A stretch of DNA of 42,602 nt, from positions 1 through 42,602 of the IMG/VR virus record IMGVR_UViG_3300045988_153375; one strand, written 5' to 3'. Below are positions 8,941 to 42,602 of the stretch, piece by piece. Origin of the DNA: a virus. The translations under genes and the position numbers were made by a program. Position 1 is the stretch's first letter. The number at the start of each line of letters is the position of its first letter. The notes below the pieces were generated by a model that made no database searches, was not told the DNA's origin, and saw nothing but the letters and a program-made list of their open reading frames with translations.

Positions 8941-8960
8941 CACACATGGTCGCATGATTT

Positions 8961-8998: not shown

Positions 8999-9012
8999 AA
9001 CCTAGAAGAGAG

Positions 9013-10598: not shown

Positions 10599-10638
10599 AT
10601 TACTGCCCCCTACCGGACAAGCGGTAGGGGGCAGTAAT
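10599..10638. terminator. bidirectional hairpin terminator between convergent genes
   Basis: 17-bp perfect stem ATTACTGCCCCCTACCG / CGGTAGGGGGCAGTAAT with a 6-nt loop. Confidence 0.7.
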
Positions 10639-14998: not shown

Positions 14999-15994
14999 AT
15001 GGACGTGGTGTTTTTGAAAACGGTATGGCTGTATTTGCCGGACGGTAGTAAGGAGAGAATCATAGCGCAAACCGGCGGCGACAAGGGGATTGGTTTCGAT
15101 TCTATTCATGGTGGCGTAGAGCGGAAACACTATTTCAAATATGACGAGTATTCGATTACCCAGACGGAGAGAGGAGATTATGTAGTGTCACCTGTAGACG
15201 ATGAGTGCGAGAAGATTTTCTACCCGAGCGGCGAGTACGAGTATGTTTTGAAGGTAGTGCAGCATAATGGGTTCTGGGAGGCGCATATCCGCAATCTTGC
15301 TAATAAACGACGAGTAGCATGCTGGAGTCGTCATCGCGTCTCTTTGGAGCATAAGCGCGATGGCTGGTATTGGCAGCAAACCGGCCCTTATTGGGCCTAC
15401 GCCGACTATGAGGTGAAATTCGCGGGTAGGCCAATTCGTCTTCATGTCTCCGACGATTATGAAGCGCCCGTCAAGAGGGCGCATAGGTATTTTACTGGCG
15501 AATGGTGCGTATGGTACGAGACTGAAGAGGGCGAAGAAGGATTCCTGTCTTTCGATGAGCAGTTCTATGAGTTGACCTTCAGAGATAATGTTATCTACAT
15601 CGCGATGAAGGATGATGACTGTATCGAGGATGATGTACACGAGAATGTCGTGTCTCGCCCGTCACACTATGCGACCCTCGATCCCGAACCTATCACTTTC
15701 ATTCGCGACAAAGACTATCTGACCGGCAGTGCTCTGAAATACATTTTCAGGGCCGGCCACAAGAATGGCGTCGACGAGAATGTTGACATGGGGAAAGCGG
15801 CATGGTATCTTCGTGAACTCGTCAACGAGCAAGGAGGTCAGACGGTGATCGCGATTCTGCGAAACATCTACTGGGACACCATTGACGGGCAGCTCACACC
15901 AAAGGATCGCGCTAGAGAGGTTCGAGACCGGCTCACAGAGTTCGTGTCCGCCATTTCACACGACCACCTCAGCAACTACATTCCGGAAGCGTGA
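14999..15994 (+). CDS. protein with a C-terminal DUF3310 domain
   Basis: PSHYATLDPEPITFI...GSALKYIFRAGHKNG...MGKAAWYLRELV matches the DUF3310 signature (HY..ep.d.i...KY..R...K...KA..YL). Confidence 0.65.
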   Translation: MDVVFLKTVWLYLPDGSKERIIAQTGGDKGIGFDSIHGGVERKHYFKYDEYSITQTERGDYVVSPVDDECEKIFYPSGEYEYVLKVVQHNGFWEAHIRNLANKRRVACWSRHRVSLEHKRDGWYWQQTGPYWAYADYEVKFAGRPIRLHVSDDYEAPVKRAHRYFTGEWCVWYETEEGEEGFLSFDEQFYELTFRDNVIYIAMKDDDCIEDDVHENVVSRPSHYATLDPEPITFIRDKDYLTGSALKYIFRAGHKNGVDENVDMGKAAWYLRELVNEQGGQTVIAILRNIYWDTIDGQLTPKDRAREVRDRLTEFVSAISHDHLSNYIPEA

Positions 15995-16458
15995 GTACTG
16001 TGGAGAATATTGTTAATATTGCTTTCGTTGATTTGCTGGAATTCAGAGGGCGGTGGGTGGCGACTGCGTTCATGCATGCCACTGACTGTGAATTCACTAT
16101 CAAAAGCAATTCTACCGATCCGTCCACCACGATTCGCGAGCTTATGCGTACCGTGCAATATGTTCAGGGAGTAACACTTGCTTTGCGTTCGTGGCAGGAA
16201 GAAAGGATCACTTTTACTAGGTGCACATATTGGCAAGAGAAAGGTAGATATGTGCTCACTTATGACGACTCATCGGATGATAATGCGTACGTCTGTGCAA
16301 TCGTGGTGTCGGAGCGCAGTGAAGACACAGTAGAAATCTTCCCGGGCGAGAGGCCTGCCCTTGCCCTTGAAGCCGAAACAATTCTACGCGATAAAGGCTA
16401 CACGGTCCACATGATCAAGGAAAACGAAGGTGGAGGACTACCGCGATGGCTACACTGA
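15991..16458 (+). CDS. hypothetical protein (155 aa)
   Basis: GTGA overlap start. Confidence 0.5.
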   Translation: MSTVENIVNIAFVDLLEFRGRWVATAFMHATDCEFTIKSNSTDPSTTIRELMRTVQYVQGVTLALRSWQEERITFTRCTYWQEKGRYVLTYDDSSDDNAYVCAIVVSERSEDTVEIFPGERPALALEAETILRDKGYTVHMIKENEGGGLPRWLH

Positions 16459-16964
16459 GTGATTTCACTCTCCGGCGCAGAATCGATTGGGGAGAACTCA
16501 TCTCCGACTGGCGCAAACCATTGTCTATTCAACCAGCGTCAGTGGAAGTGCGGCTAGACGAGAACATTATCGTCTACCGTCACGGTGACGAGAATGTCAC
16601 TATCGGTGAGAATGGTTACGAATTGTTGCCGGGTGAGTTTATTCTCGCGTCCACCCAGGAGAAAGTCAGCGTGCCTGCCGACCTAGTGGCCAGGGTGGAA
16701 GGCAAGTCGTCATGGGCGCGACGCGGAATCCTTGTTCACGTGTCCGCGGGATACATTGACCCAGGATTCCAGGGAAACGTGACCCTGGAAATCGCCAATC
16801 TGCACTCCAGTAAGCCCGCCCGTCTTTTCCCTGGGGACAGGATTGCACAGATTGCTTTCGAGGACTTGGACAGGCCAGCCAGCATGCCGTACGGCACCAA
16901 TGGCCTGGGCTCGCATTATCAGGGACAGACCGGTGTTACGCCGTCTGCTCGGGAGGTAGAATAA
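16446..16964 (+). CDS. dcd: dCTP deaminase family protein
   Basis: GKSSWARRGILVHVSAGYIDPGFQGNVTLEIANL is the hallmark Dcd/dUTPase-fold motif. Confidence 0.85.
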   Translation: MATLSDFTLRRRIDWGELISDWRKPLSIQPASVEVRLDENIIVYRHGDENVTIGENGYELLPGEFILASTQEKVSVPADLVARVEGKSSWARRGILVHVSAGYIDPGFQGNVTLEIANLHSSKPARLFPGDRIAQIAFEDLDRPASMPYGTNGLGSHYQGQTGVTPSAREVE

Positions 16965-17704: not shown

Positions 17705-17743
17705 CATTCCCCCTCACCACGACTTCCGTGATGAGGGGGAATG
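17705..17743. terminator. bidirectional hairpin terminator between convergent genes
   Basis: 17-bp stem CATTCCCCCTCACCACG / CGTGATGAGGGGGAATG with one mismatch. Confidence 0.6.
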
Positions 17744-17757
17744 TTTCACGTGAAACA
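17742..17757. promoter_or_regulatory. third copy of the GTTTCACGTGAAAC palindrome
   Basis: TGTTTCACGTGAAACA, a 16-bp perfect palindrome abutting the hairpin. Confidence 0.5.
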
Positions 17758-17758
17758 C

Positions 17759-18754
17759 TCAGGCGCCCGGCTGAGGAGACGGAGCTGGAACTGCCTTCGC
17801 CTCCAACGCGGCAACACGCTCAGCCAAATCGAGGTAGCCGCCATGCCAGGCGATCACACGCTCCATGATCCAATCCGACGGAGGATTCTGATAGGGATTC
17901 TTCTCAGGAACCCACTGGCCGCCCTCACCCTGCACTAGCTCGCCGTCGGTCACATACAAATGTGAGACGCCGAACGATGCGGCGCGATCGATTACCTGTC
18001 GGAAATTCTCTTTCGTAACACCGTGAATGACGTGCCACCATTTGGTGGAAGGCTGTGCCCGCATCACATCATTAGCAATCGGGTTATTAAGGTCGTCCGT
18101 CAAATACTTGGTGGCAGTGTTCTCAAAACTCATGCATACGTCGAAATCGAGTGCGCACACAGCCTCAGTAATGTTACTGCCAGGGTTGATAGCAATCGTG
18201 AAATTCTTCCCATATGTGCGCCGAATTTCGCCGATAAGATCACCGTACCAACCGACCCGTCCCGCCTGCGTACCCCAGCCGTTGATTACCTCGTCCAAGA
18301 ATACTCCCTGGAAAAGATCTCCGTACTGGGAGCGAAGGTTGGCGCACAGCTGCATAATGTATTCGCGCGTAAACTTGTCCGGGTCCGGCACACCGTTCCT
18401 AGCAGCATCATCCTTGGCGAGTGACGCGACACCGTAGCGGGTAGGAATATACCAGAGGACCCGCTTTGCCCCGGCCGCCCGAGCGCGCTGCGCCTGAGTG
18501 AGAAAGTCGTTGTCTTTGGCGGACCAATCGCCCGTGGAGCGATTCATGATTACGTAGCCGAGCGCGTTCCCGTAGGCCAGTGTCTTGGACCACTTCGAGA
18601 CCTTCCCCGCCTGGCCCTCATTGTAGAAATCGGGCCAGAAGTACGTGACCGGGGAGTAGTAGTGTCCGCCGACCGTGAAAGGCGAGATTGAAGAGAACAG
18701 CGGGGCTACCAACTTGTCAACGCCAGCCTTGGTGTACCCAGTAACATTTGCCAT
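17759..18754 (-). CDS. distal tail protein with a putative spherulin-4/GH135-like glycoside hydrolase fold
   Basis: The N-terminal YTKAGVDKL is a common fibre motif. The stretch YVIMNRSTGDWS...AGAKRVLWYIPTRYG...FQGVFLDEV...FTIAINPGSN...FDVCMSFENT resembles Spherulation-specific family 4. Recognised by eye. Confidence 0.45.
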   Translation of the reverse strand: MANVTGYTKAGVDKLVAPLFSSISPFTVGGHYYSPVTYFWPDFYNEGQAGKVSKWSKTLAYGNALGYVIMNRSTGDWSAKDNDFLTQAQRARAAGAKRVLWYIPTRYGVASLAKDDAARNGVPDPDKFTREYIMQLCANLRSQYGDLFQGVFLDEVINGWGTQAGRVGWYGDLIGEIRRTYGKNFTIAINPGSNITEAVCALDFDVCMSFENTATKYLTDDLNNPIANDVMRAQPSTKWWHVIHGVTKENFRQVIDRAASFGVSHLYVTDGELVQGEGGQWVPEKNPYQNPPSDWIMERVIAWHGGYLDLAERVAALEAKAVPAPSPQPGA

Positions 18755-23738: not shown

Positions 23739-26700
23739 TTATCGGTTCATTCGGTCATAGTCTACTATGGCCGATGTTGCCTCTACTTGCATGCGCCCGA
23801 CAAGATCGTTGTCCACGTCTCGAATTTCGAGCACGTCAGGGCCGAGCGCACGATTCTCCAGAAGGCTGATCAGCTTATCCATTTTCTCCCACTGGGCTGA
23901 CGTGAAAACGGGCTCCGGACGGCCAGTCTTATTCTCGATCGTTGAGAGGCCGGGCTGCAAGAATCCGCCGTTATCGTAGCGGAGATTACCGGCGGACGGC
24001 CCACCGTAGATCGGGACCTCACGCACCGGGATACCGAAGGTCGGGGCCTCGACCATCATCCCATTACCGGAGGCGATAGCAACGTGGTGGGCCGGGTAAC
24101 CCCAGAACAGGAGCGTACCGGGAACCATAGGATTACCGGGAGATGACATTGCCTGATATCCGGCCGCCGTGAGACGCGGTACGTGAATACCCATCGCATT
24201 GAGCGCCCAATAGACAAGACCAGAACAATCGAGGCCGCCTCCCGGGGAGACGCCGCCCCAAACATACGGTGTACCGATAGCACGACGCGCAGTGTTTACG
24301 AGGTCGCCCGCGGCGGCACCAATAGCACCGATTCCACCACCGAACCCGCTGACCACAGGCATGTGATCCTTGATCCAGTCACCGAGCGCGTCAATAGTCT
24401 TATCAACGCCAGCTTTTCCGGCGTCGAAGAATGGTTTCGCCCCGTCGCCGCCCCATGAATCGAGAAGTTTGTGAACCGGAGCCTTGATGACAGTTTCGAC
24501 GGCTCCGATCGGGTCGGAGAATATCGAGGATACCGCGTCGGCGGCACCGGTGATCCAATTAAGGGCAGCGGACGCACCCTTCTCTACCGTTGATTTGACA
24601 GGGTCCCAAATACCGCCGGGAGCGAATGCGGCATAGCCGGCGTCGCCGCCGGGAATACGGTCCCCGTGCGCGGCGGCGCGGTTCATGGCATTCACCATTG
24701 CCGGACCGCCGACGGCCTTCACCCATTCGGGTCGCATGATTGCTTCTCCGCCGGAAAGCGCGAGTCGGCCACCGCCGTCGGGTGACACGAAATGGTAAAT
24801 GTCGCGGCCGGGAGAGTATCCGGGCAGGACACCACCGGACGCGTACCCGCCAATCGTGGGCGCCTCAGGAAGGCGAAGATCAAGGGAGAGTTTCTCCATC
24901 ATTCCGTTTACGAGTTTCCTCAGCCCATTGTTGTAGACTGTGCCGATAACGAAGTTAACGGGTTTGGCGGCGGCTTCTTTGATTTTGTCCCACGCCGTCC
25001 TAACACCGTCTTTCATGGTGTTTGCGGCTGCTACGACCCTGTCCCAGGCGCTCGTAATTGCGGGAACAAGCGTGTTAGCAATCCAATCCTTAACGATTTG
25101 GATTTCGCCTTTCAGAATGTTCCACGCGGAGACGACCATGTTTTTCAGCCAGCTGGTCCACGAAACAACAGTATTCCAGGCAGCGCTGATCGTGGTGGCT
25201 GCACCTTGAATTACGGCGACACCCATGGTGACCGCGGCGATGATGGACGCGAATACGAACGCGATGATTCCGCCCAGAATTTTCGCTCCCGTAGAGATTA
25301 TCTCCCAGGCCACGCTAATAACGGGTGCGGCGTAGGTTTGAATCCAATTCACGACGGGCTGCATGACGGCCCAAATACCGTTCCATGTCGCCGATAGTGA
25401 GCCCCACATTATGGAGGCCGTATCTTTAATGGCGTTGAATGCGCCGACGACCCACGGCCATGCAATATTGTAGATCCAATCGACGACGGGCTGAATAGTG
25501 GCCCAAATACCGTTCCATGCCGCTGATATGGTTCCCCAAAGAGCGGAGGCAGTGTCTTTGATTGTGTTGAATGTGTCGACGACCCACGGCCAGGCCGTGT
25601 AGTAGATCCATTCGACCACTGGTTGCATGGCAGCCTGAATAGAGGTCCATGCGGCCTGAACAGTACCCCAAAGATTGGACGCCGCATCCTTGATCGTATT
25701 GAACGCGTCGACCACCCAAGGCCAAGCCGTATAGTAGATCCATTCAACTACCGGCTGCATAGCAGCTTGAATTGAGGCCCATGCACTCTGAATATCAGAC
25801 CACATGTTAGTGGCCGTATCCTTAATCGCGTTGAATGCGCCGACGACCCACGGCCAAACCGTATTGTAAATCCAATCTGCGACGGGCTGAATAGCGGTTT
25901 GAATGGCGGTCCATGCGATCTGAATATCGGCCCACATCATGGAAGCGGTGTCTTTAATCGCGTTGAACGCCCCGACCACCATAGGCCAAATGTCATTGTA
26001 GATTTGTGTAGCGACAGGCATGATTGCCGCCCAAATAGCGTCCCACGCCCACTGAATCGTAGACCAGAGCGCGCTCACGCCCCAGCTGATAGCATCCCAT
26101 GCTGTAGTGAGATACAAGGCGGCAACGTTGACAATCCAATCGACGACAGGCCGGATTATGTCGCTGATCCCTTGCCAGGCTGCGACCATCCCGTTCCAGA
26201 CGATCATTGCGCCCGCAGAAATACCGTCCCATGCCGCCTGAAGATTGGGCCAGGCAGTATTCACGATCCAGTCGACAACGGCTTGAATGACGGGCTGTAT
26301 TCCTTGCCATGCGCCGACGATGCCGTTCCATACCCATTGGGCGCCGGCGACGATTCCGTCCCATGCCGCCTGGAGTGCGGGCCATGCGGTGCCGACAATC
26401 CAGTCAATGACGGCTTGAATGACGGGCTGTATTCCTTGCCAGACGGATACCATGACGCCCCACATCCACTGGGCGCCGGCCACAATTCCATCCCAAGCGA
26501 CTTGCATGAGAGGCCAAACGTTAGCGGCGAACCAATCGGCCACTGCCCCGGCTGCCGTTTTGATTGCTTCCCAACATGAAATGACGACGTTGCGGAATGT
26601 TTCGGAGTTCTGCCATGCCACAATGATTGCCGCAACCAATGCTGCGATAGCGATCACAACGAGGCCGATTGGGTTGGCGTCCATTGCCGCGTTGAATGCC

Positions 26701-33888: not shown

Positions 33889-35505
33889 TTAGTTTATTGG
33901 TGTTTTGGTGCCGCCGGGCAGTTTAATGTTGCGCTTGACCCTGTTCCTTGTATTGGGCGCGTTATTAAGGTTCAGGTTGCTGCCACTGCCGTTACTGCTA
34001 CTGTTGTTGGCGGCGTTATTGGCGTTGTTATCGTCGTCAGCGTTAGTCGCGTCGGCGTTTTCGATATTCTCGCCATTCTCATCCACCGTGCCTCCGTTGT
34101 TCGTGGCGGCGAGAGCACGATCAAGCAATGATACCGCATTCTTTTTGCGATTCTCAGCGTTAATGTCTGCGAGATCGTCCTCGGTGAGTCCGGCACGCCG
34201 CATGAGAGTCTGCGACTCCTGCAACGACGGAAACGCAGACACCATTTTGACCGCGAAATCGGCGGCAGACGACGGCGAGGAATAGCGGGCGGGGGTCCAC
34301 TTCACCGAGGTCTTCCACGACTCTTGCGGCGGCTCGTCGAGTTTGTCACGGACCATAATAATATTCTGCAGCGTACGCCGCAGCGGTGCAGAGAAGATTC
34401 GCCACTGATACTCGGCCTCGTCCGCGAGCGCCGCCTCGGACGCCTGCATCGCCTCAGCCGAGGACGGGTTATCCGCGAATATCCCGATAGCGGACTGAGG
34501 TAGGTTTGTGGCCGCGCACAAATTCTGCGCCAGTTGACGGTACATTTCCAAGTGGGGGCTCATGGTCATTTGTGAGAATTGCCCAACCGACGGGATGTCC
34601 CCGTTTTCGTTCGGCTCCAGCACTTGGACGCGGGCCATGATTGCGGACCACCTGTCTTGGCCGGCGAAATCTGCTCTTTCCGCGCCGAGCACGTAGCGTT
34701 GCGGTGAGGAGAAGAATTCTGCGGAGGTTTCTGCGCGGACCATTGTCCTCACCGCCGCGTCCGTGAGATATCTTACTTCGCGGGTGATTCGTGAGTGACC
34801 CAACGGCCGGTTCAGTTGGGGGTCGTAGCAGAGTGCTTCAACGAAAATGCGGTGGGGGGTGTCTCCGAGTTTCTCAGCCTTCCATCCACCGCCGTTTTCT
34901 CGGGCGTCGATTCGCCAAATAGCGGTGGGGGTGTGCATGATGGCGCCTGCCGGCTGCCCGTATTTGTCGGTCTGATCGATTGTGAGGGCGGCCTCGATTA
35001 TGCGACGCCTGGTGTCCCAAAGGGCGGCGGACCATTCCGCGTCACGGGCCTGCACGACGACAGGCGGCTCACCAATAGTCTCATCCCCCCGCGTCACTGT
35101 GAGCAGTGAGAAAGAATGCTTGTACGCTGAAGTGATCGCCTGCGCGAGATCAAGATCGTAATTGTTAGCGGATAGTATTTCGTTTGCTTCGAAGGCGTCG
35201 GGCGCCCCGTTCAGGGAGTAGCCTTCGAATACGTGCCGTCGGGCGAGCATGGTGACGACTTTCTGAGGCCACCCCAACGCGGCTTTGGTGCGCGTCATTT
35301 GCGGCGGAATACTGATACCCAGGTCTTGGAAAGCGCGGTGGCCGTCATAGTAGACGGAAAGCAGCTTGTTTTTGTTCGAGTGCTGCTGCCATTTCTGCCA
35401 CAGTTGCAGAAATGTTACCCGATCGTCGTCGGGTAGTCCGGAAATGCGTGTGGGTGCCGGCGTAGCATTAACGAGTCGTCCGTCGTCAGGATAAATTTCA
35501 GTCAT
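33889..35505 (-). CDS. portal protein (SPP1 gp6-like)
   Basis: 538 aa, directly downstream of TerL, with an Asn-rich low-complexity C-terminal tail. Confidence 0.9.
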   Translation of the reverse strand: MTEIYPDDGRLVNATPAPTRISGLPDDDRVTFLQLWQKWQQHSNKNKLLSVYYDGHRAFQDLGISIPPQMTRTKAALGWPQKVVTMLARRHVFEGYSLNGAPDAFEANEILSANNYDLDLAQAITSAYKHSFSLLTVTRGDETIGEPPVVVQARDAEWSAALWDTRRRIIEAALTIDQTDKYGQPAGAIMHTPTAIWRIDARENGGGWKAEKLGDTPHRIFVEALCYDPQLNRPLGHSRITREVRYLTDAAVRTMVRAETSAEFFSSPQRYVLGAERADFAGQDRWSAIMARVQVLEPNENGDIPSVGQFSQMTMSPHLEMYRQLAQNLCAATNLPQSAIGIFADNPSSAEAMQASEAALADEAEYQWRIFSAPLRRTLQNIIMVRDKLDEPPQESWKTSVKWTPARYSSPSSAADFAVKMVSAFPSLQESQTLMRRAGLTEDDLADINAENRKKNAVSLLDRALAATNNGGTVDENGENIENADATNADDDNNANNAANNSSSNGSGSNLNLNNAPNTRNRVKRNIKLPGGTKTPIN

Positions 35506-36995
35506 AGGAACAATACTCCGCCGCCACGTCCATTATTACTATTGGCGTTTTCGATTTTATCATAAGGCTTATAGCGCGGTCTTCTTTTTGTTGTGCGTGC
35601 GGCCCACATTGCGAGCGTGCATGCTTCTAGGCCGGCTACGGTGGCGCCCGGCGGTGCTTGTAGGGCCCATCCTCCGGATGTTCCGATTGGGCGTGGCGTC
35701 GCAGAAGCGGCCTCGGTCCTCAGTTGCATGTCGTCCAGGTGTGTGATTGTGTTTTCGCGTAGTGAGGCGTCTAGCATACTGTAGGCGTCTATGATTTGCG
35801 TGATCGTGGGTGTGATGATGACTTGGGGGCGTACTCCGATGGCGCGTAGTCTTTCGATTGTGTCTCCGGCACCGTATTTTCCGTCTACGATGATTTGTGC
35901 CCATCTGTCTTTTGTGTCCGCGATGTAGTCGATGATCCATTGCGTGCCTTCGCTCATGCGGCGGACGCCTTGGTGCGTGCAGAGTTCGACGTGTGTGGGC
36001 GTGTTTTGCTTGTGTCCGGCTCGGGCTAGGGCACAGGTTGACCCGTCGGGGGCGAATCGGATTGCGGCGCACCAGCGCATACCGGTCGGCGTGTTTTCTG
36101 GCCGTATTGTGGCAGTGTTCCAGGCGACAGGGTCTATTGCGAGCCTGTCGTTGGCGCGGTCCCATATTCCGAGGCCTTCACGGCGGAATGATTCTTCTCC
36201 GAGCTGCCTACGCATTCTTAGAATGGCGGATTCGGGTGTGCGGCGCGGGTATGATGGATTTGCTTTTTCCCATTGTTTCCGGTCGTCGCTGTTGGCGTCG
36301 TAGTCGGCGGCCAACTCCAAATAGAGGCCGTCTTTTATTTCGCCTTGCAGGGCGAGGTTGCGGAATTCGCTGAATGCTTCGGATGGGTCTTTCGGTTTTG
36401 GTGGTGTTCCGATTTTGATGATGAGCGGGTCCGGGGCGGTGTTTGTGGCGGGGATCATGTCGTCTAGTGCGGCGGCGCCTAGGATTTGGGCTTCGTCGAA
36501 GAGGATCATGTCTACGCCGTGGAATCCGCGTCCGAATCCTCCTTCGCGGGCGCCGAACAGGATTCGTGATCCGTTATTGAAGAGGATGGCCTGTTGTCCG
36601 TTTGCTTGCCGTATTTTGTTCACGTACGGGGCGATGTTGGGGATTTGTGCCATTCCTTTCATGTCGTTGAATGTTTCGTCGGCGGTGCGTGTGCGGTGTG
36701 CGGTCCAGAGTACGAAGTAGTTGGGGTGGAGGGTGGCGAGTGCGAATGTGAGGCCGCCGATTGTGTATGTTTTGCCGACCTGTCTGGGGATGCTGGCTTG
36801 GATTCCGTCGATGCTGGCGGCGTAGTGGCCGTCGTTTCGTTTGGCGAGGATTGCTTTGAGCCAGTCTTGCTGCCATGTGTCGAGGGGGTATTGCATTTCT
36901 TGGAGGCGGCGTTGGACTGGCGGCCAGGCGGTGTGTGTGATGTTTTCTGGGAGGGTGAGGTGGGCGGCGATTTCGCTTAGGTGTTTTTCGCTCAT
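35502..36995 (-). CDS. terL: terminase large subunit
   Basis: Walker A IPRQVGKTYT, Walker B MILFDEAQ, and a C-terminal nuclease-type domain. Confidence 0.92.
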   Translation of the reverse strand: MSEKHLSEIAAHLTLPENITHTAWPPVQRRLQEMQYPLDTWQQDWLKAILAKRNDGHYAASIDGIQASIPRQVGKTYTIGGLTFALATLHPNYFVLWTAHRTRTADETFNDMKGMAQIPNIAPYVNKIRQANGQQAILFNNGSRILFGAREGGFGRGFHGVDMILFDEAQILGAAALDDMIPATNTAPDPLIIKIGTPPKPKDPSEAFSEFRNLALQGEIKDGLYLELAADYDANSDDRKQWEKANPSYPRRTPESAILRMRRQLGEESFRREGLGIWDRANDRLAIDPVAWNTATIRPENTPTGMRWCAAIRFAPDGSTCALARAGHKQNTPTHVELCTHQGVRRMSEGTQWIIDYIADTKDRWAQIIVDGKYGAGDTIERLRAIGVRPQVIITPTITQIIDAYSMLDASLRENTITHLDDMQLRTEAASATPRPIGTSGGWALQAPPGATVAGLEACTLAMWAARTTKRRPRYKPYDKIENANSNNGRGGGVLFL

Positions 36996-36996
36996 T

Positions 36997-37278
36997 TTAG
37001 ATGCCGTCCCAGGTTTGTGTTTCGTTTGGAATGTCGGTGGTGTGTGTGGTGGTGTTTTCGTTTTGTGTGGTGGCTAGTTGGTCTGTGATTTGTATGAGTT
37101 GTGCGGTGAGTTTTGTGAGTGCTGTGTCGCCTGTTCTGGGGTCGTCTATGACGGTGGCGATTTTGTGTGCTAAGGCTTGGCGGATGAGTGTTGGGTTGCC
37201 GGTGTTTGTGGCGTCTGTGATGGGGGCGGGACTGTTGGGTTCGTATACGGTGATTGTGGTGTTTGTGTGGGTTGTCAT
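36997..37278 (-). CDS. hypothetical protein (93 aa), positional candidate for the small terminase
   Basis: It ends 1 nt before the terL ATG. There is no recognisable motif. The T/N-rich ends reflect the local A/C-rich strand composition. Confidence 0.45.
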   Translation of the reverse strand: MTTHTNTTITVYEPNSPAPITDATNTGNPTLIRQALAHKIATVIDDPRTGDTALTKLTAQLIQITDQLATTQNENTTTHTTDIPNETQTWDGI

Positions 37279-37320: not shown

Positions 37321-37447
37321 TTTTCCACAGGGTTATCCACAGGGTGGAGGGTTTTCCACAGGGTTTTCCACAGGTTGGGGAGTTTTCCACATGATGGCGG
37401 TCACATTGTGATGTGGGTTACTGGAGTTATCCACAGGGTTTTCCACA
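37321..37447 (+). promoter_or_regulatory. cluster of seven DnaA-box consensus 9-mers TT(A/T)TCCACA, all in one orientation
   Basis: Boxes at 37321-29, 37333-41, 37352-60, 37364-72, 37383-91, 37427-35 and 37439-47. Two are TTATCCACA and five are TTTTCCACA. Most are followed by GG(G). Confidence 0.7.
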
Positions 37448-37559
37448 AGCAGGGAGGGATGGGCAGACCTTCGGGGTGTTCGCGGCCGGATGGGGGAGGG
37501 GGGGTGGCCCCCATCACATAATTTGTGTGGTGTGCGTCTCGTTTACGTGTGTTCCCTGT

Positions 37560-37980
37560 GTTGTTTGTGATGTGGGTCCCATGCCTAAGGGATCCCTTAC
37601 TGCGTTGGGGCCCCCTTTTTGTTCGTCTCGTTTTGTTGCCATGGTTTTTTTGAACGCCATTGTTGTTTCACGCTTTGCATGTTTTTGCGTGTTTTTGTAA
37701 CATTTCTTTTGTTTTTATGCATTTTTGTGTGTTTGTGCGTTTGTGCGTTGTGCTTGCCTTGTGGCATGCGTTGGCACCATGCATGGTGCATGGTGTTGGT
37801 ATGCATGTCATGCATCACATCATCATGTGTTCACTATCATGTTCATGATGTTCATCATTGATGATCGTTGATCATCATGATGTTCGTCGTTCATTGTTCA
37901 TTGATTGTTGATTGAACGTTGATCATCGATCATCGTTGATCATTGTTGTTCGTTGGTTGTGTGAACGTGAACAGTGTGAG
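37560..37980. other. AT-rich, palindrome-dense low-complexity tract (candidate DNA unwinding element / protein-binding array)
   Basis: Contains TAAGGGATCCCTTA (37586-99), T-runs, ATGCAT/CCATGCATGG palindromes, several TGATCA sites, and CGTTGATCAT three times (37866, 37917, 37934). No credible ORF. Confidence 0.5.
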
Positions 37981-39062
37981 GTGAGACAGTGGATGGTGTC
38001 CATCCTCGTCGGCGTGTTCTGTTATTGAATGGCGGTGGGGTGTGCTGCTGTCCTGCCGCAGTGCAGTGGTGTGCCCCGCGCCTTACTCATCCCACTGCAG
38101 TGCTGCTGAGTACTGCGATCGTGTCGTGTATTGTTCCTTGCCGGGTGTGTGGTGCAGTGTGGGTGAGTGTGCGTCTGTGGTGTTTGTGTGGTGGGGTATC
38201 CTCCGATGACCCTCCCCCATTCGTGGTGGTGGGTGGGGCCATCATGGTTGGTGGGGTGGCATGACGAGGCGGGGGTGGCATGACTGGGGAAGGGCGGTAG
38301 TGTCGCGGGTATCCCCTTCCGTGTATGGGTGTCCCCCGTCTGTTCGCGTGGTGGTCCCGTTGAAGGGCGGGAGTGGCGTGTGTTGTGATGTCCCGTCTTC
38401 GGATCGGGTTCTCCCCTTTCACATTGTCCCTGTCCTCTCGCATTGTCTCGCTTCCCTGTTGTGTTGTGTGTTGTGGGTGGGGAAGTGTGGTGGCGTGTGG
38501 TGTCCGTTACACATTGCGTTGTGGTGTATGTCTCTGTGTGCGAGTGGTGGGGTTGTGTGGAGTGTGGAATGTCGGTGGTGGTAGAACTGTGTCCCTCTCT
38601 TCTCTCTCTTCTCCCCTCCCTCATCTTTGTGTTTGCTGTCACGGTATTGTTGGTTTAGGGGGGCGTCTTTGTGTCAGGGTTGTGTCATTGTGGAATAGCG
38701 GTGATGGTTTGTGTTGGGTAGAAGGGTGTGTGCGGTGTCTACTGTCTGCTGTGTACTGTGTACTGTTCTCCCTTCTGTGTTGTGGTGTATGTGTGGTGGT
38801 CATGTCGCATTGTGTTGTGGGTTGTGGAATGGCGGTGCGTGAGGGGTGTGGTCTCGTCGTTTGTCTTCTTTTGTTCTCTTCCTTCTCTTCTTCTTCCTTT
38901 GTGCTGGTGTTCGGGGTAGTGCGCGCGCAGCTCTGCGAGCACGCACGTTATCCCCGAACACCATTGTGTCCCCTCGTTGCTTGTTCGTCCTCTTCTCTCT
39001 TCTTCTCCCCGCCTTTCTTCACCGTCCGTCTTTCATTGTGTTGGAATGGCGGGGGGGGTGAT
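37981..39062. other. about 1.1-kb extremely G/T-skewed (plus strand) apparently non-coding region
   Basis: The plus strand is almost free of A. Long ORFs on both strands have aberrant composition (C/V/G/L-rich or T/H/P-rich). There are no RBS-plus-start combinations. Confidence 0.6.
38905..38963. repeat. conserved hairpin element, copy A
   Basis: The 34-nt core TAGTGCGCGCGCAGCTCTGCGAGCACGCACGTTA is enclosed by the 12-bp stem TGGTGTTCGGGG / CCCCGAACACCA. Confidence 0.75.
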
Positions 39063-39407
39063 TCACCATGTGTCGGTGTGTTGTGTTGGCATGACGGCGA
39101 CGGGTAGTCTGTCTCGTTCGTCTTCGTTTTTCTGGTAGTGGCGCGCTCTTCCTTTGCCGTGCTTGCCGTTGCCTCGTCTGCTGTTGCATTTGGCGCATAA
39201 CACTCTGCCGTTGTCTGGGTGATTGGTTCCGCCTAGTGATGCTGGGATTATGTGGTCTGCTTCGGCGCTGTTTGGTTTGCGTTGTCCGTTGTTGTTGTAT
39301 TGGAGTTTTACTCCGCATGCTGGGCAGTGTGTGATGCCCATTGCTTGTGCTCGTGCGAGTACTTGTTTTCTGAATTGTTTGTGTTCTCGTGTGCTTGTTC
39401 TGCTCAC
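39063..39407 (-). CDS. HNH endonuclease
   Basis: CPACG...AEADHIIPASLGGTNHPDNGRVLCAKCNSRRGN (HNH core with paired Cys). GTG start follows AAGAAGAGAA. Confidence 0.9.
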   Translation of the reverse strand: MSRTSTREHKQFRKQVLARAQAMGITHCPACGVKLQYNNNGQRKPNSAEADHIIPASLGGTNHPDNGRVLCAKCNSRRGNGKHGKGRARHYQKNEDERDRLPVAVMPTQHTDTW

Positions 39408-39438
39408 CGCTGTTCTCTTCTTTCTTGTGTTTGTGTTA

Positions 39439-39481
39439 GGTGGTGGCGCGTCGCAGCGTCAGCGAGACGAGCGCCTCCACC
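39439..39481. other. imperfect hairpin 32 nt upstream of the HNH start
   Basis: GGTGG-T-GGCGC-G-TCG ... CGA-GCGCC-T-CCACC, giving 13 bp in three blocks. Confidence 0.35.
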
Positions 39482-39571
39482 GTCTAACACTACTCTCTCT
39501 TCTTTCTTCTCTTCTTTTTTTCGCCTTTCTTATCCTCTTCTCCTCTCTTCTTTCTGTTCGTCTTGTGGGAT

Positions 39572-39633
39572 TGGTGTGTGTTGTGTAGTGCGCGCGCAGC
39601 CCTGCGAGCACGCACGTAACACAACACACACCA
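39572..39633. repeat. conserved hairpin element, copy B
   Basis: The core TAGTGCGCGCGCAGCCCTGCGAGCACGCACGTAA matches copy A at 32 of 34 positions. It is enclosed by a different 14-bp stem, TGGTGTGTGTTGTG / CACAACACACACCA. Confidence 0.75.
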
Positions 39634-39757
39634 TTGTGTTTTGGTTGTCTACTTGAACGCAGTGCGTGTCTCTTTACACACGACACGATGATTGTTGCCC
39701 CCACCACACACTGTTCACTATTAATGATCGCCATGTTCACCATTGAACACTAATTAC

Positions 39758-39766
39758 GTTATAACA
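39758..39766 (-). promoter_or_regulatory. candidate extended -10 promoter TGtTATAAC reading leftward toward the HNH gene
   Basis: The minus strand reads TGTGTTATAAC. The first operator-like palindrome overlaps the -35 position. Confidence 0.3.
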
Positions 39767-39779
39767 CATGTTCCCTAAT

Positions 39780-39835
39780 TAGACACTGTCTAGTTCTGTT
39801 AGACAGTGTCTAATTCTAGTACTCTTTTAAGAGTA
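39780..39835. promoter_or_regulatory. three operator-like palindromes
   Basis: TAGACACTGTCTA (39780-92), TTAGACAGTGTCTAA (39799-813) and TACTCTT-TT-AAGAGTA (39820-35), in an AT-rich gap. Confidence 0.6.
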
Positions 39836-39876
39836 TAGGTTGGGCCCAACACAGTGGCGAGCTCTTCGAAAACACC

Positions 39877-39931
39877 CTGCGGCGCTGACGCTCGCTTGCG
39901 TCGCTAGGGCTCCTCAGCGGCTGCGCCGCAG
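39877..39931 (-). terminator. candidate terminator (9-bp outer stem with an inner hairpin)
   Basis: CTGCGGCGC / GCGCCGCAG encloses GACGC/GCGTC. On the minus strand it is followed by GGTGTTTTCG. Confidence 0.35.
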
Positions 39932-40153
39932 ATCGTCTTCGACGATTCGTCTACTCGAGTGTAGCATATAGACTAAAGTCCCAACAACAAACACTGCCAA
40001 CAAAACAAACGCAACAGGGACCATTCGTTGCAACCATGCGAAACACCTGACACAAAACCTTGCTGAAAGGGCAGAAAGTGTGACGACACACACCAACGTT
40101 GTAGTAACACAAACGGGTGTTTTCACCCTAGAACGCCAGTTACTAGCAAACAA
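39914..40153 (-). CDS. doubtful small membrane-protein ORF
   Basis: TTG start without an RBS, and T-ending codons unlike other genes. The hydrophobic segment VPVAFVLLAVFVVGTLVYML could equally be a composition artefact. Confidence 0.25.
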   Translation of the reverse strand: MFASNWRSRVKTPVCVTTTLVCVVTLSALSARFCVRCFAWLQRMVPVAFVLLAVFVVGTLVYMLHSSRRIVEDDLRRSR

Positions 40154-40166
40154 CCCACTTGCGTAG

Positions 40167-40211
40167 AAAGTAAACGGAAGATGAACAAAGTAAACGGGAG
40201 GTTAACGGAAC
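40167..40211. repeat. direct repeats AAAGTAAACGG(A/G)AG x2 plus a GTTAACGGAAC half-copy
   Basis: Copies at 40167-80 and 40187-200 (20-bp phase), with a related copy at 40201-11. Confidence 0.6.
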
Positions 40212-40283
40212 TGTGAGAGATTGGCATGAGCGCCGGCACCACACACCCATCACATACCGCCCTTCCACCATCCGAGACGCACT

Positions 40284-40317
40284 GAGGCCCCACCCTCATC
40301 GTGGAGAGTGGGGCCTC
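40284..40317 (-). terminator. hairpin terminator after gene 40339-40683
   Basis: 14-bp stem GAGGCCCCACCCTC / GAGAGTGGGGCCTC with one mismatch. Confidence 0.55.
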
Positions 40318-40338
40318 GTCGTCCTCAGACCAGTCAGG

Positions 40339-40683
40339 TCAGTAGGGCCAGATGAAACGGTACAGCAGGGCACGCGAGTCGACGCCCACCTCCTCGTCGA
40401 CGACGGGGATGAGAGCGACCTCGAGGATGGCGTGAGCGAGATAGGCGTCCATGGCGAGACGTGCGAGGCGAGACCAAATGCCCATGTCGGCCATCGCGTA
40501 CTCGTAGGAGTCATCCCATCCGTCGGAGACATCCGGCGGCTCGATCGAGCTGACGCCACTCTCGTCGGCCACCTTGTACAGGGTCCAGGGTTCGCCAGTG
40601 CGGGGAGCACGGATCCGGTAGACGGCCCCGTGCTCGACAGTGTTGAGGGCGGGGTCCTCGGTGCGGTAGATGGTGGTGCTCAT
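40339..40683 (-). CDS. acidic hypothetical protein (114 aa) in the GC-rich island
   Basis: ATG 40683 follows GGGGAAGAGAAA. Third codon positions are strongly G/C-ending. The longer 40731 start would run into the upstream terminator stem. Confidence 0.6.
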   Translation of the reverse strand: MSTTIYRTEDPALNTVEHGAVYRIRAPRTGEPWTLYKVADESGVSSIEPPDVSDGWDDSYEYAMADMGIWSRLARLAMDAYLAHAILEVALIPVVDEEVGVDSRALLYRFIWPY

Positions 40684-40723
40684 TTTCTCTTCCCCTTGGT
40701 TGGTTGGGTTGTTCCGTTGGTAT

Positions 40724-40772
40724 GAGGACACTCCCCGGGTCTTGCGCTAGTCAAGACCCGGGGAGTGTCCTC
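40724..40772 (-). terminator. strong hairpin terminator between the two island genes
   Basis: 21-bp perfect stem GAGGACACTCCCCGGGTCTTG / CAAGACCCGGGGAGTGTCCTC with a 7-nt loop. Confidence 0.75.
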
Positions 40773-40814
40773 TGTCATCGTGCGGTTGTCCTGCGACAGG
40801 AAGGGCGGGGCGGG

Positions 40815-41081
40815 TCAGCCGGCCAACTCGGTCAGCTCGGCCACGAAGACCTCGTTGGCCTCGGCCCGGTCGATCAACCGCCGCAGCGCGACATTGATCC
40901 GGCTCGCCGTCTCCACCCCCTCGAATTCCCTGATGTCGTTCGTGGACTCGGTGGCGAAGTCGCGCACCAGCTGGAACCCCTCGTCGGGGTAGAGGTCGAA
41001 CATGAAGAGTCGCAGCATCGCACGCAGGTACTGGTCGGCGACCTCCTCGTGGTCTTCGGCGTAGCGGAGTGTGAGGGCCAT
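40815..41081 (-). CDS. acidic hypothetical protein (88 aa; start uncertain, alternatives at 41141 and 41306)
   Basis: G/C-ending codons throughout. The helical acidic sequence begins MALTLRYAEDHEEVADQY... No clear RBS. Confidence 0.5.
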   Translation of the reverse strand: MALTLRYAEDHEEVADQYLRAMLRLFMFDLYPDEGFQLVRDFATESTNDIREFEGVETASRINVALRRLIDRAEANEVFVAELTELAG

Positions 41082-41228
41082 CGTGGTCTCAGGCTCGAGT
41101 CCGGGTGAGATGCGCGGAGTAGATGAGGCGTCCACGTCCATAGGATGACACGGACGGGGCGGCAGCGCAAGCCCATGGGGCACAGAAGCTCCCAGACCCA
41201 CTGAGGTACATCTCATGCACGCTGGGGC

Positions 41229-41258
41229 TTGACAGGGCCCCCCCCGCCCTTCTATAGT
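41229..41258 (+). promoter_or_regulatory. near-consensus sigma-70/SigA-type early promoter
   Basis: TTGACA (41229-34), an 18-nt spacer, then TATAGT (41253-58). It lies about 50 nt upstream of ATG 41309. Confidence 0.65.
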
Positions 41259-41308
41259 GGACGCACCGCCGAAGGTCGGTGTACGAAGAAAGAGAGGACG
41301 GAACACGA

Positions 41309-42298: not shown

Positions 42299-42602
42299 AT
42301 GGTAATGCTGCGGTTTGAATATGATGGCCCCGACATTGAAGGGGTGACTGACCGGGGTGTTGAGATGGGGCTTATTCGAGAGAATATGCCGCCTGCCACG
42401 TCCTACTATCATGATAATGATGGTTTCACTGTCATTGTGTGGGACACTGAGGTTGGCGTTATTGAAACGTACGTGTTTGATAATGGTAGGTCGACAGTAT
42501 GGTATTTCAGTACGAAAAACACGGCGGCGGATGCTTGGTGGCGGAAAACTGTCACTGTCGATGAGATTACTGGCGTCGCGGCCAGGTGGATTCTCAAACA
42601 TA
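42299..42602 (+). CDS. 5' part of the junction-spanning hypothetical protein (continues at nt 56-249 after collapsing the overlap)
   Basis: ATG 42299 follows GGGGAAGAGAGGAG. The frame stays open to the window end and is in phase with frame 1 at the window start. Confidence 0.6.
   Translation, partial: MVMLRFEYDGPDIEGVTDRGVEMGLIRENMPPATSYYHDNDGFTVIVWDTEVGVIETYVFDNGRSTVWYFSTKNTAADAWWRKTVTVDEITGVAARWILKH
42548..42602. repeat. 55-nt exact terminal overlap (copy 2)
   Basis: Identical to nt 1-55. Confidence 0.95.

What the first reader, a model, noticed from the sequence alone, without database searches (positions are those of the whole stretch)
39408..40270. Strand-composition skew inverts at the operator-like palindromes: candidate physical genome ends or divergent control point
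To the left of about 39.70 kb the plus strand is G/T-rich, so the minus strand is A/C-rich. To the right of about 39.95 kb and up to about 40.27 kb the plus strand itself becomes A/C-rich (caacaacaaacactgccaacaaaacaaacgcaac..., gacgacacacaccaacg...). The switch falls in the AT-rich gap carrying three palindromes (39780-39835). If the packaged linear DNA were cut near here, both 3'-ending strands would be G/T-rich and both 5'-ending strands A/C-rich. That is a telomere-like symmetry. HNH endonucleases encoded next to terminase genes are known to assist cos cleavage in several HK97-like phages, so a cos site close to this HNH gene is plausible. Alternatively the inversion reflects divergent transcription or a replication-related asymmetry.
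Basis: inference. Interest (0 to 1): 0.65.

Follow-up and report, generated by a model that had tools for sequence, protein, structure and literature searches.

The report
Strand-skew switch, not genome ends
The strand-composition flip is real and conserved, but it marks a conserved control region at the edge of a strand-biased zone in an uncultivated human-associated phage, while the true cohesive genome ends lie 2.3 kb away, on the other side of the HNH gene.

Summary
The plus strand is 59-79% G+T left of 39.7 kb and 36-38% at 39.96-40.27 kb. This is the largest composition step in the genome, and it recurs in 32 relatives.

The main interpretation fails. Related metagenome contigs end exactly at window 37465 and 37477, and three of them have an Illumina adapter fused to that base. 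This places cos at 37466-37476, with an inferred 11-nt 3' overhang, between HNH and TerS. The skew does not flip there.

The switch coincides with a block that is 96-100% conserved. It holds operator palindromes phased 20 bp apart, promoter-like hexamers, iteron-like repeats and a ~95-nt structure that pairs only on the minus strand. Transcription on both flanks therefore looks co-directional, not divergent.

The bias reaches synonymous sites: A+C at 4-fold sites is 100% in TerS, 94% in HNH and 85% in TerL. It follows the physical strand and is still being maintained. The closest precedent is the hypervariable right-end noncoding region of P. acnes phages, where a GC-skew switch was attributed to replication. 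The cause of the bias remains unresolved.

The parts
39960..40270 (.). Island that is A/C-rich on the plus strand (G/U-rich on the minus strand). It is bounded by the two largest skew steps in the genome.
   Evidence: G+T 0.363, lowest 0.2% of windows. Conserved composition in 32 relatives.
40284..40317 (-). Hairpin terminator of the preceding minus-strand gene (orf114, 40339-40683), without a U tail.
   Evidence: repeat I6. The stem is kept by varied sequences in relatives. The minus-strand fold is better in 19 of 25 variants.
40167..40206 (.). Two tandem 20-nt repeats (AAAGTAAACGGRAGRTNAAC), iteron-like or activator-site-like. Some relatives have one copy.
   Evidence: (D3) and the alignment.
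39858..39949 (-). Branched hairpin of about 95 nt that pairs on the minus strand, as RNA or single-stranded DNA. It is 97-100% conserved and its 3' side includes a GGUGUUUUCG run.
   Evidence: 99.7% of cells paired, 3 pairs with compensatory changes, one-sided changes all to G.U, and two invariant G.U pairs that would be C.A on the plus strand.
39832..39860 (-). Promoter-like hexamers TCGCCA-17-TATACT reading towards HNH. The -10 lies inside the third palindrome.
   Evidence: 9 of 12 matches; a consensus match only. Nearly invariant in relatives.
39839..39850 (.). Perfect 12-bp palindrome GTTGGGCCCAAC inside the promoter spacer.
   Evidence: Read from the sequence. Conserved in all but two relatives.
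39820..39835 (.). Palindrome TACTCTTTTAAGAGTA.
   Evidence: Nearly invariant: two of the 20 distinct sequences differ at one base.
39777..39815 (.). Operator-like array of two 13-bp palindromes TAGACA-N-TGTCTA, 20 bp apart centre to centre.
   Evidence: unique, 0 expected; D4, I4. Relatives carry 2 or 3 copies at 20-bp phasing, with variable spacers.
39734..39749 (.). Second palindrome type, TGTTCA-N4-TGAACA, with a further TGTTCAC copy at 39712. Relatives carry an alternative 18-bp palindrome GTGTTCAACGTTGAACAC.
   Evidence: D9.
39572..39633 (.). Long hairpin with 26-nt arms. Its core is a 42-nt element that is also present at 38907-38948.
   Evidence: (D10, I9). Several related contigs break at this repeat.
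39433..39490 (.). Hairpin just upstream of the HNH start. Its core, 39440-39479, is 100% conserved.
   Evidence: I8.
39063..39407 (-). HNH endonuclease gene. A+C at its 4-fold sites is 0.94.
   Evidence: (PF14279, PF01844).
37477..39062 (.). Hypervariable noncoding tract between HNH and cos. The plus strand is about 70% G+T with about 9% A. It carries 5 of the 6 minus-strand copies of CACCGCCATTCCA (the sixth is at 37037, inside TerS).
   Evidence: Length is 1215-1633 nt in relatives with constant composition.
37466..37476 (.). cos cleavage interval GACCTTCGGGG, an inferred 11-nt 3' overhang.
   Evidence: At least 10 contigs start at the reverse complement of 37465, one of them with an Illumina adapter fused. 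Contigs start at 37477, two with adapter fused and three with foreign DNA joined there. The position matches the right end of Spartoi.
37321..37447 (+). Seven co-oriented TTWTCCACA repeats between cos and TerS. They are candidate TerS-binding (cosB-like) sites, and they also match the E. coli DnaA-box consensus.
   Evidence: (7 found, 0.65 expected).
36997..37278 (-). Terminase small subunit. A+C at its 4-fold sites is 1.00 (50 of 50).
   Evidence: (phrog_1459, 5.6e-5).
35502..36995 (-). Terminase large subunit. A+C at its 4-fold sites is 0.85.

Best explanation
The skew inversion is not a chromosome end. It is the sharp upstream edge of a strand-biased domain of about 4.3 kb (window 35.5-39.7 kb). 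That domain is centred on the true cos site at 37466-37476 and runs from the HNH leader through HNH, a hypervariable noncoding tract, cos and TerS into TerL.

The edge coincides with a conserved control block of about 500 bp (39.70-40.27 kb). I read this block as the regulatory head of the HNH-cos-terminase late unit:
- a structured minus-strand RNA with a U run insulates it from upstream transcription;
- promoter-like hexamers follow;
- dimer-type operator palindromes phased on one face of the helix gate transcription.
That transcription would cross the joined cos ends into the packaging genes.

The bias itself follows the physical strand (window plus strand G+T-rich) whichever way the genes point, reaches synonymous sites, and is being maintained now. 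I think the most likely cause is a strand-asymmetric mutation pressure tied to how this phage group replicates, as proposed for P. acnes phages. In that case the block would also be where the asymmetry changes.

Shown: the skew, the termini, the conservation, the strand of the structure, the synonymous-site bias and its current maintenance. Inferred: promoter use, operator function and the cause of the bias.

The overall confidence of 0.6 breaks down as follows: about 0.95 that the ends are at 37466-37476 and not at the switch, about 0.65 that the block is a transcription-control region, and about 0.45 that the bias is mutational and linked to replication.
For: Termini and layout
- Termini map to 37465 and 37477, with sequencing adapters fused at both and an 11-nt gap between them.
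- The layout HNH, cos, TerS, TerL matches the isolates Spartoi and MrSmee. The Spartoi right end aligns with the inferred right end here.

Control block
- The block is 96-100% identical among 24 relatives, whereas HNH is 88-93% identical and the flanks are hypervariable.
- The operators are unique in the window, palindromic and phased 20 bp apart. Relatives have 2-3 copies with variable spacers.
- Promoter-like hexamers lie at 39860-39832 on the minus strand.
- The structure pairs on the minus strand with compensatory and wobble changes.

The bias
- Sense-strand A+C at 4-fold sites is 1.00 in TerS, 0.94 in HNH and 0.85 in TerL, against 0.45-0.56 in tail genes. In the oppositely oriented primase and helicase genes it is 0.28-0.32.
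- In HNH, TerS and TerL, derived alleles towards G/T stay rare (mean frequency 0.074, against 0.156 for A<->C changes, p=1e-6). The pattern is reversed in neighbouring late genes.
- In primase the favoured direction is the same physical strand (p=0.005).

Precedent
- P. acnes phages have a hypervariable right-end noncoding region with a GC-skew switch that is independent of transcription. PA6 shows an extreme physical-strand bias at 4-fold sites.
Against: - No transcript data exist. The promoter is only a 9-of-12 consensus match, and the scan found no more matches than in shuffled sequence.
- No DNA-binding regulator was identified.
- The bias is far from uniform: near zero over 6-32 kb and almost absolute over 35.5-39.7 kb. 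A simple replication model does not predict that.
- Under the bacterial rule that the leading strand is G/T-rich, the switch at 39.7-39.95 kb has terminus polarity, not origin polarity.
- The domain starts at the block and fades downstream, and its sense RNA folds about 40% less strongly than elsewhere. These features fit selection on the late transcript equally well.
- The allele-frequency test cannot separate selection from strong recurrent biased mutation.
Confidence: 0.6

Rival explanations
1. The block is a replication origin paired with a fork-arrest site. Replication starts near 40.2-40.3 kb, at the iteron-like repeats, and runs essentially one way round the circle. The short opposite fork is stopped at the protein-bound palindromes. 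The plus strand would then be the G/T-rich leading strand everywhere except in the 300-nt island.
For: - The two largest skew steps in the genome lie 600 bp apart with opposite signs. The step at 39.7-39.95 kb has terminus polarity and the one at 40.27 kb has origin polarity.
- The bias follows the physical strand in both gene orientations.
- The block contains direct repeats, palindromes and AT-rich stretches.
- Published work infers an origin at the equivalent skew switch of P. acnes phages.
Against: - The size of the skew is near zero over most of the genome and peaks around cos rather than at 40.2 kb.
- No initiator protein was identified.
- The only DnaA-box-like cluster is at 37.3-37.45 kb.
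- The wobble pattern of the structured element points to a minus-strand transcript.
Confidence: 0.25
2. The bias is selected at the level of the late transcript or the cos-proximal DNA. The first ~4.3 kb of the late unit would be kept nearly free of G and U, giving an unstructured, C-rich, G-poor RNA. Such an RNA could serve, for example, as a Rho-loading attenuator or as protection from nucleases. The flip is then simply where that unit starts.
For: - The domain begins sharply at the promoter and operator block and fades downstream.
- Composition is held constant while the sequence and length of the tract vary.
- G/T alleles are kept rare, although they arise about as often as elsewhere.
- The sense RNA folds at -28 to -31 kcal/mol per 150 nt, against -48 in tail genes.
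Against: - The oppositely transcribed primase and helicase genes have a G/T-rich sense strand, with the same physical-strand polarity, and would need a second explanation.
- PA6 shows the same kind of extreme bias irrespective of transcription direction.
- Translated genes such as TerL would not need a Rho-loading composition.
Confidence: 0.3
3. The palindromes are a divergent promoter and operator region. Leftward and rightward transcripts would both be A/C-rich.
For: - Composition is mirrored on the two sides.
- An inverted copy of the CCGCC(A/C)TTCCAC motif lies at 40258 on the plus strand.
Against: - The structured element at 39858-39949 and the hairpin at 40284-40317 pair properly only on the minus strand.
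- No conserved plus-strand -10 element was seen.
- The strong plus-strand promoter (TTGACA-18-TATAGT) that opens the early arm is at 41229-41258.
Confidence: 0.1
4. The packaged DNA is cut at 39.7-39.9 kb, so that cos lies at the palindromes and the ends have telomere-like strand symmetry.
For: - The skew inverts here.
- In the related phage PA6 one skew flip does coincide with cos.
Against: - More than 20 independent contig ends, three of them fused to sequencing adapters, fall at 37465 and 37477.
- Contig ends near 39.5-39.74 kb fall at a repeated hairpin element or at non-identical positions.
- Isolated relatives have their ends between HNH and the terminase genes.
Confidence: 0.01

Closest known systems
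Right-end noncoding region of Propionibacterium (Cutibacterium) acnes phages (Marinelli et al. 2012, mBio, PMC3448167)
   Same: - The genome plan matches that annotated for PA6: structural genes forward, replication genes reverse, and HNH as the last gene at the right end.
- Both have an 11-base 3' cohesive extension inferred from where reads end.
[quoted passage not shown]
- In both, the skew switches inside that region independently of transcription direction.
- Both show an extreme physical-strand bias at 4-fold sites (PA6).
   Different: - In PA6 the whole genome is biased (forward strand G/T-rich). The skew flips again exactly at cos, and HNH sits 49 bp from the end.
- Here the strong bias is regional, has the opposite polarity in the terminase genes, spans cos without flipping, and a 1.2-1.6 kb tract separates HNH from cos.
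- There is no nucleotide similarity.
HK97-type HNH-cos-terminase packaging module (from established knowledge of HK97 gp74; isolates Rothia phage Spartoi and Arthrobacter phage MrSmee)
   Same: - HNH lies immediately upstream of cos, with TerS and TerL immediately downstream.
- TerL is about 49% identical to the Spartoi and MrSmee proteins.
- The right-end sequence resembles that of Spartoi.
   Different: - The isolates have HNH 49-157 bp from the end. Here a long, hypervariable, strand-biased spacer intervenes.
- A role of HNH in cos cleavage was not tested.
Lambda-type cos organisation, with cosN plus TerS-binding repeats in cosB (established knowledge)
   Same: Seven co-oriented repeats lie between the cleavage site and the TerS gene.
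   Different: The repeats match the DnaA-box consensus TTATCCACA. Binding by TerS or by DnaA was not tested.
Vertebrate mitochondrial heavy/light strand asymmetry (established knowledge)
   Same: One strand is almost free of two bases at 4-fold sites, irrespective of gene orientation.
   Different: The replicon and the scale are different. Simple single-strand-exposure models give the wrong sign or the wrong profile here (see the full report).

Membership tests
cos site with 3' cohesive overhang (actinophage / HK97-like) | Defined, invariant physical termini | tested here: met
   At least 10 contigs start at the reverse complement of 37465 and at least 6 start at 37477. Adapters are fused at both termini. 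This places cos at 37466-37476, not in the finding's interval.
cos site with 3' cohesive overhang (actinophage / HK97-like) | Short single-stranded extension with 3' polarity | tested here: inconclusive
   An 11-nt gap separates the blunt contig ends. That is what removal of a 3' overhang during end-polishing gives, whereas filling in a 5' overhang would duplicate the 11 nt. The polarity is inferred, not measured.
cos site with 3' cohesive overhang (actinophage / HK97-like) | Position between the HNH gene and the terminase genes | tested here: met
   HNH is at 39407-39063, cos at 37466-37476 and TerS at 37278-36997. The isolates have the same order.
   Contig ends near 39.53-39.74 kb are at a repeated hairpin element or at non-identical positions.
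   Plus-strand G+T is 0.707 in the 300 nt left of cos and 0.72 in the 300 nt right of it.
P. acnes-phage-type right-end skew-switch region | Noncoding, near the right end, and the most variable part of the genome | tested here: met
   Tiles at 37.8-39.0 and 39.5-39.7 kb match few or no relatives. Tract length ranges from 1215 to 1633 nt.
P. acnes-phage-type right-end skew-switch region | Skew switch independent of transcription direction | tested here: met
   The 4-fold-site bias follows the physical strand in minus-sense TerL, TerS and HNH and in plus-sense primase and helicase.
P. acnes-phage-type right-end skew-switch region | Sequence homology to the P. acnes phage region | tested here: not met
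   No blastn match to any isolated phage. The resemblance is architectural only.
Replication origin | Initiation of DNA synthesis at the site, or a cognate initiator protein | not testable with these tools
   Only indirect features are available: repeats, palindromes and skew polarity.
Repressor/operator array | Repeated palindromic sites with conserved half-sites and helical phasing next to a promoter | tested here: met
   Binding by a protein was not tested and no regulator was identified.
Structured cis-RNA or terminator-like element | Base pairs kept through compensatory changes on one strand | tested here: met
   On the minus strand, 99.7% of cells are paired. There are 14 cells with changes on both sides, against 5.6 +/- 1.4 in shuffles (0 of 500 reach it). 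Two G.U pairs are invariant. Diversity is low and the sequences are related. There is no Rfam match.
oriC-like DnaA-box cluster (37321-37447) | Clustered consensus DnaA boxes next to an AT-rich region | tested here: inconclusive
   Seven exact TTWTCCACA repeats are found where 0.65 is expected, and an AT-rich stretch lies at 37.6-37.96 kb. The position between cos and TerS fits terminase-binding repeats equally well.

The most novel reading that the evidence does not exclude
The near-absolute exclusion of G and T from one strand over about 4 kb spanning cos could be a functional composition code, or the footprint of a localised strand-specific DNA process that starts at the conserved block. 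The exclusion covers 100% of TerS 4-fold sites and a 1.2-1.6 kb spacer that keeps its composition while its sequence turns over. It is actively maintained. On this reading it would not be an ordinary replication skew.
Probability: 0.25. Interest if true: 0.65.

Novelty: new variant of a known kind. Interest (0 to 1): 0.4.

Why it matters
- It gives the physical ends (an 11-nt cos site) and the map orientation for an abundant, uncultivated group of human-associated phages of roughly 41-43 kb, using only assembled contigs.
- A skew inversion is not a reliable marker of phage termini. In PA6 one flip coincides with cos, but here it does not.
- The regional, actively maintained strand bias at synonymous sites is unusually strong. 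It comes with more than 60 near-identical natural variants, which makes a usable data set for separating mutation from selection in phage strand asymmetry.
- The conserved block is a concrete target for finding the late-gene regulator or the origin of this phage group.

Tried and rejected
- A small hydrophobic ORF at 40031-39914 on the minus strand could have explained the A/C-rich island. Its start codon is absent in most relatives, which also carry 1-nt indels.
- A 43-aa plus-strand ORF at 39840-39971 is broken by single-base indels that track the RNA stem.
- Rfam gave nothing at gathering score and only chance-level miRNA-type hits at relaxed thresholds. No tRNAs were found.
- Nucleotide searches against isolated phages found nothing relevant.
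- There is no close prophage among GTDB species representatives, only 41% TerL relatives in Leucobacter. The exact-protein look-up of HNH found nothing. The host is therefore not established; the samples are human-associated, and Rothia is only a guess.
- Pfam and PHROGs found no DNA-binding regulator among the neighbouring or small early ORFs.
- Literature searches for this phage group found nothing.
- Several mechanisms were rejected because they predict the wrong sign:
  - End-resection or nick-extension at cos predicts a flip at cos.
  - Deamination of the non-template strand during late transcription predicts a G/T-rich sense strand.
  - A bidirectional origin at the DnaA-box cluster predicts a flip at 37.4 kb.
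- The idea that the skew is a mosaic relic is disfavoured, because a directional force is still acting.
- One MAFFT run timed out and was replaced by BLAST-projected alignments.
- An early 4-fold calculation for orf114 used the wrong frame and was corrected.
Full report
**What the window is.** The window is a circular metagenome assembly. Bases 1-55 repeat exactly at 42548-42602, so its ends are arbitrary.

It is a siphovirus-type actinophage genome. On the minus strand it carries HNH (39407-39063), TerS (37278-36997), TerL (36995-35502), portal, a VG15/MuF-like protein and a tape-measure gene. On the plus strand, from 41279 through the wrap to about 17.7 kb, lie replication genes: primase/helicase, helicase, exonuclease and Sak4.

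TerL's nearest isolated relatives, at about 49% identity, are Arthrobacter phage MrSmee and Rothia phage Spartoi. More distant relatives are P. freudenreichii, C. acnes and cluster-K-like mycobacteriophages.

- Plus-strand G+T is 0.59-0.79 from 35.5 to 39.7 kb, with A at 6-14%. It falls to 0.36-0.38 at 39.9-40.3 kb.
- The step at 39.6-39.85 kb (0.27) is the largest in the genome and exceeds every shuffle. The return step at 40271 is the second largest. The island at 39960-40259 is in the lowest 0.2% of windows.
- The inversion is present in all 32 relatives examined. In those relatives the tract between HNH and cos varies from 1215 to 1633 nt and is largely unalignable.

**Where the ends really are.** A search with TerL returned 62 IMG/VR contigs at 95-99% protein identity, many of them about 42-43 kb long.
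- At least ten of these contigs, from several independent samples, begin at exactly the same base, the reverse complement of window 37465 (TGCCCATCCCTCC...). One carries the Illumina paired-end adapter ...CTGAACCGCTCTTCCGATCT fused directly to that base.
- Contigs approaching from the other side begin at window 37477 (TGTTCGCGGCCGG...). Two of them have ...CCGATCT fused, and three have unrelated DNA joined there.
- Contigs that span the junction all read ...GGGATGGGCA GACCTTCGGGG TGTTCGCGG...

The 11 nt missing between the two blunt ends are what end-polishing removes from a 3' overhang. A 5' overhang would be filled in and duplicated instead. I therefore place cos at 37466-37476, with an 11-nt 3' extension whose polarity is inferred.

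This fits the isolates. HNH is the last gene in both Spartoi and MrSmee, 157 and 49 bp from the right end, and terminase starts 325-390 bp from the left end. Spartoi's right end...CCCCCATCGGCGGGCCAGACGAACACCCCCCGGCGAT, resembles the inferred right end here...CCCCCATCCGGCCGCGAACACCCCGAAGGTC.

Contig ends that fall near 39.53-39.74 kb start at a 42-nt hairpin element present twice in the genome, or at scattered positions. They are assembly breaks.

At the true cos the skew does not invert: G+T is 0.707 on one side and 0.72 on the other. One 3'-ending strand is G/T-rich and the other is A/C-rich, so there is no telomere-like symmetry.

**Anatomy of the switch region.** Among 24 distinct relatives, 39800-39960 is 96-100% identical. 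HNH is only 88-93% identical, and the flanks are hypervariable. Read on the minus strand, in the direction of the late genes, the order is:
- the hairpin terminator of orf114 (40317-40284), whose stem is kept by different sequences in different relatives;
- a G/U-rich stretch of 300 nt, containing two 20-nt tandem repeats (40206-40167) and a 12-bp palindrome GTTGCTAGCAAC in most relatives;
- a branched hairpin of about 95 nt (39949-39858), whose 3' side includes GGUGUUUUCG;
- promoter-like hexamers TCGCCA-17-TATACT (39860-39832);
- palindromes GTTGGGCCCAAC and TACTCTTTTAAGAGTA;
- two TAGACA-N-TGTCTA sites exactly 20 bp apart. Some relatives have three at the same phasing, and the spacers vary;
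- a TGTTCA-N4-TGAACA palindrome, replaced in some relatives by an 18-bp palindrome.

Conserved half-sites, variable spacers, helical phasing and copy-number variation are what a protein-bound operator array looks like. No binding protein was identified.

**Which strand is used.** The stem CTGCGGCGC/GCGCCGCAG shows T:A, G:C and paired-deletion states at one position and C:G or T:A at another. Every apparent mismatch on the plus strand is C:A or A:C, which is a G.U wobble on the minus strand.

RNAalifold on the minus strand gives 32 pairs and -44.6 kcal/mol, with three pairs carrying compensatory changes and all one-sided changes being G.U. On the plus strand it finds no compensatory pair.

Pair counting gives 99.7% of cells paired and 14 cells with changes on both sides, against 5.6 +/- 1.4 in shuffles (0 of 500). 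Two G.U pairs are invariant. From those counts, only about 91% of cells would pair on the plus strand. The orf114 terminator also folds better on the minus strand in 19 of 25 variants.

The right flank is therefore read in the same direction as HNH, and the palindromes are not a divergent point. The divergent region lies near 41.1-41.28 kb, where a TTGACA-18-TATAGT plus-strand promoter opens the early arm. Diversity is low and the sequences are related, so this is good evidence but not decisive.

**The nature of the bias.** At 4-fold degenerate sites, sense-strand A+C is 1.00 in TerS (50 of 50), 0.94 in HNH and 0.85 in TerL. It is 0.45-0.56 in tail genes. In the oppositely oriented primase and helicase-primase genes it is 0.28-0.32 (orf114 corrected). 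The bias thus reaches synonymous sites and follows the physical strand.

It is also being maintained now.
- In HNH, TerS and TerL, derived alleles towards G/T arise about as often per site as elsewhere but stay rare. Their mean frequency is 0.074, against 0.156 for A<->C changes (p=1e-6).
- Neighbouring late genes show the reverse pattern.
- In primase the favoured direction is again G/T on the plus strand (p=0.005).
- Polarisation was by majority rule and the sites are near saturation, so strong recurrent biased mutation could mimic selection.

The profile is centred on cos. It is cut off sharply at 39.7 kb and fades between TerL and the capsid gene.

One consequence is that the late-sense RNA of this domain folds weakly, at -28 to -31 kcal/mol per 150 nt against -48 in tail genes. 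In the control block the minus-strand RNA is the more structured of the two.

**Precedent.** Marinelli et al. 2012 (PMC3448167) report the following for P. acnes phages:
- an 11-base 3' extension deduced from where reads end;
- a noncoding region of more than 1 kb near the right end that is the most variable part of the genome, with unusual composition and conserved low-complexity runs;
- a GC skew that switches within that region independently of transcription. They attribute the switch to replication and suggest an origin there.

My own calculation on PA6 shows that the forward strand has 1-3% A at 4-fold sites in forward genes, with the complementary pattern in reverse genes. HNH at the right end is A/C-rich (0.93), and the skew flips again exactly at cos.

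Here the switch at 39.7-39.95 kb is the counterpart of the noncoding-region switch in PA6, with the same sign and the same position upstream of the HNH unit. It is not the counterpart of the cos switch. P. freudenreichii phage G4 shows no such bias, and Spartoi shows only a weak one.

**Mechanisms weighed by sign.**
- End resection or nick extension at cos predicts a flip at cos, which is not seen.
- Deamination of the non-template strand during late transcription predicts a G/T-rich sense strand, which is the wrong sign.
- A bidirectional origin at the DnaA-box-like cluster predicts a flip at 37.4 kb, which is not seen.
- Under the bacterial rule, the step at 39.7-39.95 kb has terminus polarity and the step at 40.27 kb has origin polarity. 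This allows a model of an origin next to a fork-arrest site with effectively one-way replication. That model does not explain why the bias is near zero over 6-32 kb.
- Selection for a late leader RNA poor in G and U explains the sharp start, the downstream decay and the weak folding. It does not explain the primase domain or PA6.

I rank a replication-linked strand-asymmetric mutation pressure first (about 0.45), selection on the transcript or DNA second (about 0.3-0.35), and leave the remainder to other or mixed causes.

**Verdict.** The finding is a real and conserved feature whose main interpretation is wrong. It is a new variant of a described kind of region, with a well-supported by-product (the cos site) and an unusually strong, still unexplained, regional strand bias.

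Noticed in passing
window 1-55 and 42548-42602: An exact 55-nt terminal direct repeat, the signature of a circular k-mer assembly. The window start is arbitrary and the unit genome is 42,547 bp.
   Followed up: yes
window 37321-37447: Seven co-oriented TTWTCCACA repeats (two are exact E. coli-type DnaA boxes, TTATCCACA) lie between cos and TerS. The repeat arrangement differs between relatives. They could be terminase-binding repeats or DnaA boxes.
   Followed up: partly
window 37600-37960: The most AT-rich stretch of the genome (GC 0.37-0.44). It is built from TGATCA, GTTCAT and CATCAT low-complexity repeats with many GATC sites, just inside the right end. It is present in relatives.
   Followed up: no
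window 37037, 38035, 38575, 38701, 38835, 39052 (minus strand) and 40258 (plus strand): A motif CACCGCCATTCCA(C/A) recurs six times on the minus strand between TerS and HNH, often followed by ACAATG. An inverted variant lies at the far edge of the A/C island. A related inverted pair is at 8959-9000. Its function is unknown.
   Followed up: partly
window 38907-38948 and 39576-39617: A 42-nt GC-rich hairpin element is present twice (88% identical). Several related contigs break at it.
   Followed up: partly
window 16446-16964 (+) and 14999-15994 (+): The phage encodes a dCTP deaminase-like protein (PF22769, 2.6e-32) and a nucleotide-kinase-like protein. Manipulation of the nucleotide pool might bear on the mutation bias.
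   Followed up: no
window 10551-10610 and 17733-17768: The palindrome TGTTTCACGTGAAACA occurs three times. One copy sits at the convergent junction between the early arm and the lysis/tail arm.
   Followed up: no
window 25342-26001 and 26209-26472: Tandem 132-nt repeats (5 + 2 copies, 68-78% identical) lie inside the tape-measure gene.
   Followed up: no
window 40300-41300: A GC-rich segment (0.62-0.67, against 0.55 overall) holds orf114 and orf89. It matches only about half of the relatives, so it looks like a mosaic cargo region abutting the conserved block.
   Followed up: partly
L190 (Propionibacterium phage PA6, NC_009541), whole genome: The forward strand has only 1-3% A at 4-fold sites in forward genes, with the complementary pattern in reverse genes. 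The skew flips both in the noncoding region at about 27.7 kb and exactly at cos.
   Followed up: partly
L056 and L039, first 110 nt: Two related contigs carry fold-back (inverted-duplication) artefacts centred on the cos overhang sequence.
   Followed up: no
window 41229-41258: A near-consensus plus-strand promoter, TTGACA-18-TATAGT, lies just upstream of the first early-arm ORF. Together with the minus-strand orf89 it forms the actual divergent region.
   Followed up: no
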